A stretch of DNA of 64,000 nt. Origin: the human T2T-CHM13v2.0 reference genome, Homo sapiens. Position numbers and translations under genes: made by a program. Below the pieces are notes generated by a model, which did no database searches, was not told the origin of the DNA, and saw only the letters and a list, made by a program, of their open reading frames with translations. Shown one piece after another: positions 54,895 through 63,758 of this stretch (positions within the stretch are counted from its first letter, which is position 1; every line of letters begins with the position of its first letter). The stretch lies in the NCBI RefSeq assembly GCF_009914755.1, contig NC_060943.1; one strand, given 5' to 3'.

Positions 54895-55098
54895 GGACAG
54901 GTCAACATTTGCCTCTGGATGGAGGTCTAAGAAGAATCCCCTCAGAGAGGGTGGCCTCTGCAGAGCTTCTGAGCTCCCTGAAACTCCAAAATTTCTCAGG
55001 GTGGGAGATATGGCTGGGGTCCCCGCATTTGACCTGGGAAAACCTGTGTCTAGAAGAGCTGCCGTATGTATGGAGGTTGGGGGAATTGTGCAACGCTT
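54895..55098 (-). other. MUC16: 204-nt in-frame open extension of exon 1 up to a splice-acceptor-like site (conventional 5'UTR)
   Basis: 68 stop-free codons (KRCTIPPTS...EANVDLS) in frame with the ATG, bounded by cctttcctttctctccctgagatttggtcttctcaattAG. Confidence 0.7.
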
Positions 55099-55264
55099 CT
55101 AATTGAGAAGACCAAATCTCAGGGAGAGAAAGGAAAGGATAGTTCAACCACAGACAATTTCCTCAAATAAACACCTGATGATCTCAATTCTTCCCTTCAA
55201 ACTTTTTAACGGATTCTCAGTGTCTGCAGAATAGAATTTCTTAGTGTATCATGTCTTAATGATC

Positions 55265-55321
55265 CTCTCTCTCTCTCTCTCTCTGAGTGTGTGAGTGTGT
55301 GTGTGTGTGTGTGTGTGTGTG
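55265..55321. repeat. (CT)n(GT)n microsatellite
   Basis: Direct reading. Confidence 0.95.
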
Positions 55322-55342
55322 ATGTCTTAGAAACCAGGAACC

Positions 55343-56047
55343 AGGCTGGGCACGGTGGCTCATGCCTGTAATCCCAGCACTTTGGGAGGTGAGGTGGGAG
55401 GATCACCTGAGGTTGGGAGTTTGAGATCAGCCTGACCAACATGGAGAAACCCCGTCTCTACTAAAAATACAAAATTATTTTTAATTTTTTAAAAATAATT
55501 TTAAAAAAAATTTTAATAAAAATAAATATTGGGTGTGGTGGCATGTGTCTGTAATCCCAGCTACTTAGGAGGCTGAGGCAGGAGAATCACTTGACCCTAG
55601 GAGGCAGATGTTGCAGTAAGCCAAGGTCACACCACTGCACTCCAGCATGGGTAATAAGAGCTCTGTCTCAAAAAGAAAGAGAAAGAAAGAAAAGAAAGGA
55701 AGGAAGGAAGGAAGGAAGGAAGGAAGGAAGGAAGGAAGGAAGAAAGAAAGAAAGAAAGAAAGAAAGAAAGGAAGGAAGGAAGGAAGGAAGGAAGGAAGGA
55801 AGGGAGGGAGAGAAAGAGAAAGAAGGAAGGAAGGAAGGAAAAAAAGAAAGAAAGAGAAAGAAAGAGAAAGGAAGGAAGGAGGGAGGGAGGGAAGGAAGAG
55901 AGAAAGAAAGAAAGAAGGAAAGAAAGAAAGAGAGAAAGAGAGAGGGAGGGAGGGAGGAAGGGAGGAAGGAAGAAAGAAAAGGAAAGAAAGAGAGGACCGA
56001 GGGAGTGAGGAAGGGAGGAAGGGAAAGAAAGAAAAAAAGAAAGAAAG
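55343..56047 (+). mobile_element. Alu with AT-rich expanded linker and a long GGAA/GAAA polypurine tail
   Basis: Alu motifs; pure purine at 55670-55996. Confidence 0.9.
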
Positions 56048-56066
56048 ATGCAGATAGAGCCCCTAC

Positions 56067-56615
56067 CTACACCCCCATGAGATGGAGCTAATGCTCAGTG
56101 TGTGATACTGGCAGATACTAAGGCTCTTGAATTGAGAAGTGGAGGTCAGAGAAGACACGGCACTTCTGTTCAGATCAGAGCAGGGGCCCACAGATGCACT
56201 CTCAGGAATCAGTGGAAGTTGCTCTTGATTAAAATCTCATGACCCTGGCCTGCTGGGCGTGGTGTCTCATGCCTGTAATCCCAGCATTTTGGGAGGCTGA
56301 GGTGGGCAGATCACGAGGTCAAGAGATGGAGACCATCCTGGCTAATATGGTGAAACCCCATCTCTACTAAAAATACAAAAAATTAGCTGGGTGTGGTGGC
56401 GCCCACCTGTAATCCCAGCTACTCAGGAGGCTGAGGCAGGAGAATCGCTTGAACCCGGGAGGCGGAGGTTGCAGTGAGCCAAGATCACACCACTGCACTT
56501 CAGCCTGGGCGACAGAGCCAGAGTCTGTCCCAAGAAAATAATAAATAAATAAATAAAATTTCATGACCCAGAGGGTGAAGAAGATGAGGTTGAATCATGT
56601 AAAGGTCTAGCGATG
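56067..56615 (-). pseudogene. Ser-rich exon relic interrupted by an Alu
   Basis: Acceptor tttttttcctcttctgtcctaaatcAG. [29 protein letters not shown] reads across the removed Alu. GTAGG donor-like sites at 56070/56066. Confidence 0.4.
56246..56553 (+). mobile_element. Alu (Sc-like) with 16-bp TSD
   Basis: taaaat(c/t)tcatgaccc at 56230-56245 and 56554-56569. Confidence 0.9.
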
Positions 56616-56722
56616 CTGATTTAGGACAGAAGAGGAAAAAAAAAAGAATTTCCTGGCAGCTCACTATCTCTGGCTGTTTTTGTTGAGGGAAAAGTGCAGG
56701 GAAGATTTTTCACTTTGGGCAT

Positions 56723-60666: not shown

Positions 60667-62028
60667 TTTTTTTTTTTTTTTTTGAGACGGAGTCTTGCTC
60701 TGTTGCTCAGGCTGAAGTGCAGTGGTGTGATCTCAGCTCACTGCAACCTCTGCCTTTTGGGTTCAAGCAATTCTCCTGCCTCAGCCTCCCGAGTAGCTGG
60801 AACTACAGGCATGTGCCACTATGCCTGGCTAATTTTCGTATTTTTAGTAAAGACGGGGTTTCACCATGCTGGCCAGGCTGGTCTCAAACTCCTGACCTCA
60901 GGTGATCTGCTGCCTCGGCCTCCTTGGATTACAAGCATGAGCCATTGCACCTGGCCGAGTTAACAGTATTTTCTTTAGAGAGTTAACAATGTTTTTAAAG
61001 TAAAGTTAACAATATTTAAACACCATGATATAAAGTTAATATGTTGCTTTAGAGATGGGGTCTTGCTCTGTTGCCCAGACTGGAGTGCAGTGGTACGATC
61101 TTAGCTCACTGTAGCCTCGAACTCCTGGGCTCAAGTAATCCTTCTGCCTCAGCCTCTCAAGTAGCTGGGACTACAGGTGGGTGCCACTATGCCCAGAGAA
61201 TTTTTTTTTAATTTTTAGTAGAGTTGAAGTTTCACTATGTTGTCCAGACTGGTCTCAAACTCCTGGCCTCAAGTGATCCTTCTGCCTCAGCCTCCCAAAG
61301 CACTGGGATTACAGGCACTAGCCACCACACACCACACACAGCCAGAGTTAGGATTTATTATTTTATTTTATTTATTTATTTATTTATTTATTTTGACATG
61401 GAGTCCTTTTCTGTCGCCCAGGCAGGAGTGCAGTGGCATGATCTCGGCTCACTGCAACCTCCGCCTCCTGGGTTCAAGTAATTCTCTTGCCTCAGCCTCC
61501 CAAGTAGCTGGGATTACAGGCACGCACAACCATACCTGGCTAATTGTTTTGTTTTGTTTTGTTTTGTTTTGTTTTGTTTTGTTTTGTTTGAGATGGACTC
61601 TCACTCTGTCGCCTAGGCTGGAATGCAGTGGCGGGATCTCGGCTCACTGCAAGCTCCACCTCCCGGCTTCACGCCATTCTCCTGCCTCAGCCTCCCAAGT
61701 AGCTGGGACTACAGGTGCCTGCCACCACGCCCGGCTATTTTTTTTTTTTTTTTTTTTTTTTTTTGGTATTTTTAGTAGAGACAGGGTTTCACCGTGTTAG
61801 CCAGGGTGGTCTCGATCTCCTGACCTCGTGATCCGCCCGCCTCAGCCTCCCAAAGTGCTGGGATTACAGGCGTGAGCCACTGCGCCCAGCCTAATTTTTG
61901 TATTTTTAATAGAGACGGGGTTTCGCCACGTTAGCCAGGCTGGTCTCGAATTCCTGACCTCAGGTGATCCGCCCGCTTCGGCCTCCCAAAGTGCTGGGAT
62001 TACAGGCCTGGGCCACTGCGCTTGGCCC
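60667..62028 (-). mobile_element. Antisense Alu cluster, including an AluY nested in the middle linker of an older Alu (~61545-61891)
   Basis: The older Alu resumes at ctaatttttgtatttt 61891. Confidence 0.85.
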
Positions 62029-62085
62029 AGAATTAGAATTTAACCAGTAGTTTTTGTAGATGCTACACCCCGCGAGGAAGACACA

Positions 62086-62103
62086 AGTGCCCCCTGCTGG
62101 CCA
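62086..62103 (-). promoter_or_regulatory. CTCF core motif
   Basis: TGGCCAGCAGGGGGCACT versus consensus TGGCCASYAGRKGGCRS. Confidence 0.6.
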
Positions 62104-62374
62104 ATCCTTTTAGTTTATCTTCTTGTATGTATCAGATTTAGTTATTATTTACGTAGCTAAAAGAATCTCGGGTCTATTTGGTTACTTTGGTTACCTAATA
62201 CTTGACCTATTTGGAAATAGAAAAGGATGTTTCCTGTTTGTTTAGAGGCATTCCAAAGGTTCTACAGACAGTGATATTTCACTACCTAGTCATAGCCTTG
62301 TCCATGTCAAGTAGTTCGGGTGCTTTCTTACCTTGGGTCCTCACACATTCTTAGTTCTTAGCTGAATCTTCTAT

Positions 62375-63160
62375 TTTTGAAACAGGGTCTTGCTCTGTCA
62401 CCCAGGCTGGAGGGCAGAGGTGTGATCGTAGCTCACTGCAGCCCCGATCTCTTGGGCTCAAGCAATCCTCCCGCCTCGGCCTCCTGAGTAGCTGGGACTA
62501 CAGGCATGCACCACCATGCCTGGCTAATTTTTTCTTTTTTTAATTGTAGAGATGCAGTCTTGTCATGTTGCCTAAAGTGATCTCCAACTCCTGGGCTCAA
62601 GCAATCCTCCCTCCTCAGCTTCCCAAAGTGTTGGGATTACGGGTGTCAGCCACCACGCCAGACCTCAGCTAAATCTTTTCTATCTTTGAAAATGCTACAG
62701 TACCCGATGTTTCCTAGAATTTAGATGGCAAGCTGTGTCATAGGGACATCTCGTGCAGGAGGGGAAAAGGGTGAAGGCATGACGCATTGCTGAACAAGAC
62801 TAGTAGTAATACTTAGTTGGCGGGGGGGGCGGGTCTTGAAATTTATGGCCGGGCGTGGTGGCCCACACCTGTAATCCCAGCACTTTGGGGGGCCGAGGTG
62901 GGTGGATCACCTGAGGTCAGGAGTTCAAGACCAGCCTGACCAACATGGAGAAACCCCATCTCTACTAAAAATACAAAATTAGCCGGATGTGGTGGCACAT
63001 GCCTGTAATCCCAGCTACTCTGGAGGCTGAGGCAGGAGAATCGCTTGAACCCGGGAGGTGGAGTTTGCGGTGAGCCGAGATCAAGCCATTGCACTCCAGC
63101 CTGGGCAACAAGAGTGAAACTCCGTCTCAAAAAAATAAATAAATAAAAATTAAAAAATAA
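62375..63160. mobile_element. Alus at 62375-62665 (-) and 62847-63160 (+)
   Basis: Alu motifs. Confidence 0.88.
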
Positions 63161-63231
63161 ATTTGGAAAGCCATTCCCAAGGGCATGTAGCCCTAGATGA
63201 TTTTCCAGGGAGTCTGAAAAGCAATACTTAC

Positions 63232-63758
63232 GAAGACAGTTAGTCAATTTGTAACCTTAGCATTGACTAGGAACAAGTAGAGCTTGAAAGGGCAGCTGAG
63301 GCTGGGCGCGGTGGCTCAAGCCTATAATCCCAGCACTTTGGGAGGCCGAGGCGGGCGGATCACGAGGTCAGGAGATCGAGACCACGGTGAAACCCCGTCT
63401 TCACTACAAATACAAAAAATTAGCTGGGCGCGGTGGCGGGCGCCTGTAGTCCCAGCTGCTCAGGAGGCTGAGGCAGGAGAATGGCGTGAACTCTGGAGGC
63501 AGAGCTTGCAGTGAGCCAAGACTGCGCCACTGCACTCCAGCCTGGGCGACAGAGCGAGACTCAGTCAGTCTCCAAAAAAAAAAAAGAAAAGAAAAGAAAC
63601 GAAAAGAAAAGAAAAGGGCAGCTGAACCCCTGGAGAGGCAGAGAATGGGGCACTTCTGTCAATCAGCACCACAGTGGTAGATGTCTCTGCCCCAGTTCCT
63701 GTGGGTAGGTGGGCTGTGTGTGTATGGAGTCAGGATTGTTGTTCTCTAGTTCGAGGAA
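63232..63758 (-). pseudogene. Mucin PTS exon relic interrupted by a young Alu
   Basis: Acceptor ccttcctatctcccattcAG, peptide [23 protein letters not shown], one in-frame TGA, Alu with TSD, GTAAGT donor at 63231. Confidence 0.5.
63300..63612 (+). mobile_element. AluY-lineage element with a 12-nt left-arm deletion and 13-bp TSD
   Basis: gagaccacggtgaaacccc; TSD aaagggcagctga at 63287-63299 and 63613-63625. Confidence 0.88.

What the first reader, a model, noticed from the sequence alone, without database searches (positions are those of the whole stretch)
54895..63758. Hidden upstream exon array: MUC16 appears to have a longer, partly decayed N-terminus
Seen: in transcript order the 9 kb upstream of the ATG contains exon-shaped segments with polypyrimidine-AG starts, GT ends and mucin-like translation, at 63758-63232, possibly 62749-62332, 60453-~59948, 59385-59287 and 56615-56067. 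Exon 1 itself then begins at an acceptor-like AG. Several segments share motifs with real MUC16 exons and favour phase 1, like every real junction here. Three carry Alu insertions. Inference: the PTS/linker alternation of exons 1-5 once continued further 5' and was eroded in the primate lineage, so the true first exon (with signal peptide) lies upstream of this window. I recall newer transcript models adding upstream exons but cannot confirm which.
Basis: partly seen in the sequence, partly recalled or inferred. Interest (0 to 1): 0.85.

Follow-up and report, generated by a model that had tools for sequence, protein, structure and literature searches.

The report
MUC16 upstream exons: one real, four chance
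Of five proposed hidden exons upstream of the old MUC16 start, one is a real exon already in the current reference transcript, whose signal-peptide first exon lies beyond this window, and the other four look like ordinary Alu-rich intron.

Summary
The AG starts, GT ends and Alu inserts sit at the stated coordinates. Only one of the five segments is an exon. Segment 59385-59287 matches, base for base, coding exon 3 of RefSeq Select NM_001401501.2. That transcript starts about 20 kb beyond the window. Its first exon encodes a signal-peptide-like N-terminus, and it enters the giant exon at 54713, not at 55098 or 54977.

The other four segments have 4-11 stops in every frame. They give no BLAST or profile match to human MUC16 or to 130 orthologue models. 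Equally good AG...GT pairs number 548 on the sense strand and 520 on the antisense strand. Their S/T/P content is within the intron background.

The inference that the true first exon lies upstream is correct but already annotated. The idea of an exon array eroded in primates is not supported.

One side result: the old 5'UTR is open in the old ATG frame and aligns with coding sequence of a bat model. An in-frame phase-1 AG at 55060-55059 would start an exon at 55058. Low interest; already known.

The parts
59287..59385 (-). Coding exon 3 (99 nt, 33 codons, phase 1 in and out) of RefSeq Select NM_001401501.2 and of NM_001414686.1.
   Evidence: Its coordinates are identical to the annotation. 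It is open only in phase 1, with S/T/P 0.50. Its acceptor ranks 2 of 631 AG sites and its donor 13 of 397 GT sites in 55108-64000, scored with a MUC16-trained matrix that left this exon out. It is the only blastx hit of the interval.
45420..54713 (-). Giant PTS exon as used by RefSeq Select. The acceptor AG is at 54715-54714.
   Evidence: The acceptor score is 7.7, and the frame is open from exon 2 or exon 3 in phase 1.
54714..55107 (-). The 5' part of the old first exon (NM_024690.2 and NM_001414687.1): old 5'UTR, old ATG at 54894 and 60 codons. It is intronic in the Select transcript.
   Evidence: It is open in the ATG frame from 55098, with an in-frame TAG immediately upstream. The old N-terminus has no hydrophobic core: the Kyte-Doolittle 11-residue maximum is 1.05, against 2.65 for Select exon 1.
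55058..55060 (-). Candidate alternative or ancestral acceptor: AG at 55060-55059, so an exon would start at 55058.
   Evidence: In phase 1 it is in frame with the giant exon, adds 115 codons and meets no stop. The alignment of the Pteropus model P0001 starts at 55062 and runs without a break through 54713 (E 1e-45 and 1e-14, against a reversed-query best of 1e-4). The acceptor score is weak, 0.9. No transcript evidence was available here.
63232..63758 (-).
   Evidence: It has 6 stops in each frame and its length is 2 mod 3. Its acceptor ranks 4 of 631 but its donor 55 of 397. The best protein hit has E = 18.
62332..62749 (-).
   Evidence: It has 5-10 stops per frame. Its acceptor ranks 121 of 631 and its donor 1 of 397. 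It gave no protein hit.
59948..60453 (-).
   Evidence: It has 4-8 stops per frame. Its acceptor ranks 170 of 631 and its donor 57 of 397. The best protein hit has E = 8.3 and crosses 6 stops.
56067..56615 (-).
   Evidence: It has 5-11 stops per frame. Its acceptor ranks 62 of 631 and its donor 33 of 397. The best protein hit has E = 14. A linker-profile hit at 56611-56567 has iE 1.7, the same level as hits on the + strand.

Best explanation
The interval 54895-63758 consists of introns 2 and 3 of the current MUC16 reference transcript plus its 99-nt coding exon 3.

According to the annotation, transcription of the Select form starts about 20 kb beyond the window end. Exon 1 encodes a basic stretch followed by a hydrophobic core, which is a signal peptide by its shape. 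Exons 2 and 3 are short phase-1 cassettes, and exon 3 splices into the giant PTS exon at 54713. The start codon of the older model is therefore bypassed, and the older model was the one that lacked a signal peptide.

The other four 'exon-shaped' segments are chance AG...GT pairs in Alu-rich intron. Antisense Alus and pyrimidine runs supply acceptor-like sites in abundance.

Shown here: the coordinates, the frames, the lack of homology, the background rates, and the conservation of exon 1, exon 2 and the distal exons in other mammals. Inferred: that the peptide works as a signal peptide, and that the old start is secondary.
For: - RefSeq lists four MUC16 mRNAs. The Select form and NM_001414686.1 both use 59287-59385 and the acceptor at 54713. 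All of the first 12 junctions are phase 1.
- Exon 1 translation has three arginines followed by a hydrophobic stretch with a Kyte-Doolittle maximum of 2.65.
- Exon 1 aligns to sheep models at 61-65% identity. By eye, exon-1-like starts also occur in other ruminants, rhinoceros, vole, Kogia and Tamandua.
- Exon 2 aligns to two bat models at 53-63% identity.
- Against the four segments: stops in every frame.
- Against the four segments: tblastn with the first 450 residues of 124 models gave 30 hits at E <= 0.01, and none fell on them. Six further models gave 3 hits, again none on them.
- Against the four segments: blastx of the 3,703 unmasked bases out of 8,893 found only exon 3 at E <= 10.
- Against the four segments: the sense and antisense background rates are equal.
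Against: - RefSeq still keeps two transcripts that start at 55098 and 55107, so the old start may be a real second promoter.
- The acceptor of segment A ranks 4 of 631 and the donor of segment B ranks 1 of 397.
- Segment A holds an exact 8-residue match ('TAHLPTGT') to a bat MUC16 model, though the alignment has E = 18.
- No primate model with an intact N-terminus was within the length limits of the protein search, so loss within primates could not be examined directly.
- The orthologue models are computational predictions.
- No orthologue of exon 3 itself was found in the 124 models. The best match was E = 0.084, to a linker motif elsewhere in a musk deer protein. A blank for a 33-codon exon is therefore weak evidence.
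- No RNA data could be consulted.
Confidence: 0.85

Rival explanations
1. One reading: the segments are remnants of a longer array of alternating PTS and linker exons that was coding in an ancestor and was eroded by Alu insertion in primates.
For: - One of the five is a real exon.
- Real junctions are phase 1.
- Segment A has a strong acceptor (rank 4 of 631) and a short MUC16-like motif.
- Exon 3 has a weak resemblance (E = 0.084) to the linker motif that precedes the second giant exon in laurasiatherian models.
- The two annotated linker exons, 43531-43635 and 17288-17401, are weakly related to each other (profile iE 0.29).
Against: - No homology above noise to human MUC16 or to 130 orthologue models.
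- Profiles of both linker types find no further copy in 141 kb. The best non-annotated hits have iE 0.3-2 and occur on both strands.
- Models from bat, ruminants, rhinoceros, vole, whale and anteater go from exon 1 or exon 2 straight into PTS sequence, with nothing that maps here.
- The Alu content is what random placement gives.
- The sense and antisense backgrounds are equal.
Confidence: 0.04
2. Some of the four segments, or Alu-internal sites near them, are used now and then as cryptic or Alu-derived cassette exons that break the frame and give rare, non-productive transcripts.
For: - Many of the 15 best acceptor scores lie inside masked Alus (for example 63629, 63467, 62910, 62406, 58505, 56296).
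- Two phase-1-open symmetric candidates at strict thresholds lie in the Alu at 58419-58646.
- Exonisation of antisense Alus is a well-known process (recalled, not from a call).
Against: None of them is in the four RefSeq transcripts.
Confidence: 0.12
3. The old start at 55098-55107 is a real internal promoter. MUC16 would then have two or three real 5' ends, one of which gives a protein without the signal peptide.
For: RefSeq keeps NM_024690.2 and NM_001414687.1. A 2024 isoform study still reports the 84-exon ENST00000397910.8 as the canonical isoform recovered by targeted long reads (PMC11945306, passages).
Against: - The old N-terminus has no hydrophobic core, although MUC16 is a type I membrane mucin.
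- G+C is 0.46 around the old start, against 0.63 around Select exon 1.
- The sequence upstream of the old ATG is open in frame and aligns with coding sequence of a bat model, as expected if the old 5' end is a truncated or intron-retaining cDNA.
- The capture probes of the 2024 study were designed on the old annotation, so upstream exons may not have been captured.
Confidence: 0.3

Closest known systems
RefSeq Select MUC16 transcript NM_001401501.2 (113 exons, 15,350 codons)
   Different: It contains none of the other four segments. It enters the giant exon at 54713, not at 55098 or 54977.
Bovine MUC16 (EMBL BN001315, Hoorens et al. 2011, PMC3056801); P0048 is named by its source as the TPA Bos taurus mucin-16, and I take it to be this record
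   Same: It starts with a signal peptide. By eye, the first ~30 residues of P0048 resemble human Select exon 1. Closely similar sheep models align to exon 1 at 61-65% identity.
   Different: In the ruminant models the signal-peptide exon is followed directly by PTS sequence. No counterpart of human exon 2 or exon 3 was detected.
Alu exonisation / cryptic Alu splice sites (general knowledge, recalled)
   Same: Alus antisense to the gene put a poly-T run and AG sites on the transcribed strand.
   Different: No annotated transcript uses them here.

Membership tests
Annotated coding exon of MUC16 | Coordinates coincide with an exon of a curated transcript | tested here: met
   Met for 1 of the 5 segments (59287-59385). 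The other 4 are not annotated.
Annotated coding exon of MUC16 | Open in the frame set by the neighbouring exons (phase 1), with a length that keeps the frame | tested here: met
   D is 99 nt with 0 stops in phase 1. A, B, C and E have 6, 5, 4 and 9 stops in phase 1. Their lengths are 527, 418, 506 and 549 nt, and only E is a multiple of 3.
Decayed (relic) exon of MUC16 | Residual protein-level similarity to MUC16 or its orthologues above what the opposite strand or composition gives | tested here: not met
   blastx with composition correction gave 0 hits for A, B, C and E at E <= 10. Without correction the best E values were 18, 8.3 and 14, against 25 on the + strand. The linker profiles gave noise-level hits only.
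Decayed (relic) exon of MUC16 | An intact orthologous exon in other mammals | tested here: not met
   The first 450-600 residues of 130 models gave no hit on A, B, C or E. Caveats: by eye only about 20 models have an exon-1-like start, all are predictions, no primate N-terminus was retrievable, and no genome alignments were available.
Decayed (relic) exon of MUC16 | Splice-site pair and S/T/P content beyond the intron background | tested here: not met
   548 sense against 520 antisense AG...GT pairs. The maximum S/T/P values of 0.43-0.50 fall within the top 5% class that 5.0% of sense and 6.0% of antisense windows reach.
N-terminal signal peptide (Select exon 1, outside the window) | Basic n-region followed by a hydrophobic h-region of about 10-15 residues near the N-terminus | tested here: met
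   Three arginines are followed by a hydrophobic run with a Kyte-Doolittle 11-residue maximum of 2.65, against 1.05 for the old N-terminus.
N-terminal signal peptide (Select exon 1, outside the window) | Predicted or observed cleavage and ER targeting | not testable with these tools
   No signal-peptide predictor and no experiment were available.

The most novel reading that the evidence does not exclude
The 345 nt just upstream of the Select acceptor (55058-54714) include the old 5'UTR and the old start codon. They may be a still-open ancestral 5' extension of the giant exon. A bat model uses this region as coding sequence, and it might be reachable in humans through the in-frame AG at 55060-55059, giving an isoform 115 residues longer. 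On this reading the 99-nt exon 3, for which no orthologue was found, is a lineage-restricted addition, possibly derived from the linker-exon family.
Probability: 0.25. Interest if true: 0.3.

Novelty: already known. Interest (0 to 1): 0.12.

Why it matters
MUC16 (CA125) is a major tumour marker and drug target. For two decades its reference model lacked a signal peptide, which is odd for a type I membrane mucin. The current RefSeq Select transcript resolves this with three upstream exons, so nothing new is added here.

The practical point is that work based on the old 84-exon model mis-states the N-terminus. One example is a 2024 isoform study that calls that model canonical (PMC11945306, passages). 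Capture probes or primers designed on the old model may also miss the real 5' exons.

The four rejected segments show how easily Alu-rich intron yields exon-shaped stretches.

Tried and rejected
1. Homology of the old 5'UTR to rodent and rhinoceros models. By eye, vole, hamster and rhinoceros N-termini seemed to enter the giant exon upstream of 54713. Their alignments (E 3e-5 to 0.004) are no better than reversed-query controls, whose best E was 1e-4 to 0.02. Only the bat alignment is kept.

2. Exon 3 as a paralogue of the linker exons. There is a musk deer motif match at E = 0.084. However, profiles built from 50 and 23 linker sequences did not recover exon 3. The fam2 profile scored even the human linker at only iE 11, so it lacks sensitivity. 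This question is left open.

3. The splice matrix was trained on MUC16's own sites (101 unique acceptors and 42 unique donors, test exon left out). Many of these come from tandem repeat units, so the scores are rough. No MaxEnt-type scorer was available.

4. Literature.
- 'NM_001401501' gave 0 papers.
- Searches listed no paper that by title or abstract start describes the human upstream exons. One search was too loose and returned nothing on MUC16.
- I read passages only (find mode) of PMC3056801, PMC1552070, PMC11945306 and PMC9578598.
- Supplements were closed. The probe table of PMC11945306 could show whether upstream exons were targeted.

5. The protein word search cannot reach models longer than 1.75 times the query, so full-length primate MUC16 models with N-termini were not obtained.

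6. One search (tblastn without composition correction) gave 79 mostly low-complexity alignments and was not used, apart from repeating the bat result.

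
Full report
**What the annotation says.** The window lies inside MUC16 (minus strand), and the gene is annotated from chr19:8,959,807 to 9,191,530. RefSeq lists four mRNAs.
- The two older ones (NM_024690.2, NM_001414687.1) start at window 55098 and 55107, with the ATG at 54894.
- RefSeq Select NM_001401501.2 starts at window-equivalent 84137. Its ATG is in exon 1 (83997-84137), followed by exon 2 (67727-67840) and exon 3 (59287-59385). 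It enters the giant exon at 54713, which is 181 nt downstream of the old ATG.
- NM_001414686.1 starts still further up (139339-139530 and 109367-109798) and then uses the same exon 2, exon 3 and acceptor.

The first 12 coding junctions of the Select form are all phase 1.

**Check of the observation.** Masked repeats sit inside three of them. Each of these three matches 10-12 of the other masked blocks in the same 8.9 kb at 65-84% identity, so they belong to one ~300-bp family. I recognise the family as Alu from memory. The inserts in A and E are antisense to the gene and the one in B is sense.

**Which segments are exons.** Segment 59385-59287 is, to the base, Select exon 3.
- It is 99 nt, open only in phase 1, and has S/T/P 0.50.
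- A splice matrix was trained on MUC16's own sites (101 unique acceptors, 42 unique donors, this exon left out). With it, the acceptor ranks 2 of 631 AG sites and the donor 13 of 397 GT sites in 55108-64000.

The other four segments fail the coding and splice tests.

| Segment | Stops per frame | Acceptor rank of 631 | Donor rank of 397 |
|---|---|---|---|
| A | 6 / 6 / 6 | 4 | 55 |
| B | 8 / 10 / 5 | 121 | 1 |
| C | 8 / 8 / 4 | 170 | 57 |
| E | 11 / 5 / 9 | 62 | 33 |

Their S/T/P fractions are 0.18-0.34. The 62-nt 3' flank of A has a stop in all three frames, so removing the Alu does not open it.

**Is it more than chance?**
- At strict thresholds there are 15 sense pairs. Three of these are phase-1 open and symmetric: exon 3 and two inside the Alu at 58419-58646. 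The antisense strand has 9 pairs and none open.
- Across 37,900 unmasked non-exon bases upstream, 5.0% of 28,789 sense windows of 30 codons reach S/T/P 0.40. On the antisense strand the figure is 6.0%. The best windows of A, C and E reach 0.43, 0.50 and 0.47.
- Repeats mask 58% of 55108-64000.

**Homology tests.** Three protein searches gave 130 MUC16 models from named public sources.
- tblastn with the first 450 residues of 124 of them, against window-equivalent 54000-141000, gave 30 hits at E <= 0.01. Of these, 21 fell on the giant exon or old 5'UTR, 5 on the distal exon at 109367-109798, 2 on exon 2 and 2 on exon 1. None fell on any of the five segments.
- The six further models (first 600 residues, E <= 0.05) gave three hits, all in the giant exon.
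- blastx of the 3,703 unmasked bases of 55108-64000 against 124 models plus the human Select protein, with composition correction and E <= 10, found exon 3 only.
- Without correction the best hits were E = 18 (A, including the exact motif 'TAHLPTGT'), 8.3 (C, across six stops) and 14 (E), against 25 on the opposite strand.
- Profiles of the two linker-exon types, built from 50 and 23 sequences, recovered 17288-17401 (iE 6e-26) and, marginally, 43531-43635 (iE 0.29). They found nothing else above the level of opposite-strand hits in 141 kb.

A caveat: exon 3 itself has no detectable orthologue in the 124 models searched (best E = 0.084, to a linker motif in a musk deer model). A blank for a short exon is therefore weak evidence. 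None of the primate models retrieved includes the N-terminus.

**The real 5' end.**
- The Select exon 1 peptide has three arginines followed by a hydrophobic run. Its Kyte-Doolittle 11-residue maximum is 2.65. The old N-terminus reaches only 1.05.
- Exon 1 aligns to sheep models at 61-65% identity. By eye, similar starts occur in about 20 models, from ruminants, rhinoceros, vole, Kogia and Tamandua.
- Exon 2 aligns to two bat models at 53-63% identity.
- The distal exon aligns to chinchilla, reindeer, dugong and sperm whale models at about 61-63% identity over 80-144 residues.
- Hoorens et al. [quoted passage not shown]
- A 2024 study still calls the 84-exon model canonical (PMC11945306, passages).
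- No paper in the searched library contains the Select accession.

**The old first exon.** In phase 1 that site gives a stop after 65 codons, and its acceptor score is -10.0. The ATG frame, however, is open from 55098 down.

The Pteropus model P0001 goes from its exon 2 counterpart straight into sequence that aligns with human 55062 onward. The alignment continues through the old ATG and through 54713 without a break. It has 49% identity over 208 positions and E 1e-45. In the small search it has E 1e-14, against 1e-4 for reversed queries.

An AG at 55060-55059 would, in phase 1, add 115 codons in frame with no stop. Their acceptor scores are 0.9 and -15.3, against 7.7 for 54713. Whether humans ever use them is unknown. 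Similar-looking vole, hamster and rhinoceros alignments do not exceed the reversed controls.

**Verdict.** Both facts are already in RefSeq Select. The proposed eroded exon array is not supported, and the four extra segments are ordinary Alu-rich intron. Novelty: already known. Interest: low.

Noticed in passing
window 54895-55098 (-): The old 5'UTR is an open frame continuous with the old ATG, with an in-frame TAG directly before 55098. It aligns with coding sequence of a Pteropus MUC16-like model. An in-frame phase-1 AG at 55060-55059 would extend the giant exon by 115 codons.
   Followed up: partly
outside the window: L012/L003, chr19:9191339-9191530 and 9161367-9161798 (window-equivalent 139339-139530 and 109367-109798): The two distal coding exons of NM_001414686.1 give a second signal-peptide-like start. 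Both are conserved. The 432-nt exon aligns at about 61-63% identity to chinchilla, reindeer, dugong and sperm whale models. The first exon aligns to a sheep model at 81% over 21 residues.
   Followed up: partly
window 43531-43635 and 17288-17401 (-): The two short 'linker' exons before the second and third giant exons both begin with TDG and are weakly related (profile iE 0.29). The second is well conserved across mammals (58 hits at E < 1e-3).
   Followed up: partly
window 59287-59385 (-): No orthologue of Select exon 3 was found in the 124 non-human models. The best match (E = 0.084) is to the linker motif of a musk deer model. The exon may be lineage-restricted or merely too short to detect.
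   Followed up: partly
window 55338-56053: A long pyrimidine-rich microsatellite block (TTCC/CTTT-type on the transcribed strand) gives spurious K/E/G/R-rich ORFs of 136-166 aa on the + strand. A (CA)n-(GA)n run lies at about 55285-55335.
   Followed up: no
window 59437-59829: A masked repeat of the same family ends 52 nt upstream of the exon 3 acceptor. Alternative AG sites at 59414 and 59427 score well or give phase-1-open extensions of exon 3.
   Followed up: no
window-equivalent 84075-84311 (L011): A badger (Meles meles) model reads through the region homologous to the human sequence just upstream of the Select ATG, at 50% identity. The human copy has stops there, so that model's N-terminal extension is probably 5'UTR.
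   Followed up: no
chr19:9145051-9145877 (+), outside the window: The annotated pseudogene BOLA3P2 lies inside the long upstream intron of the NM_001414686.1 form.
   Followed up: no
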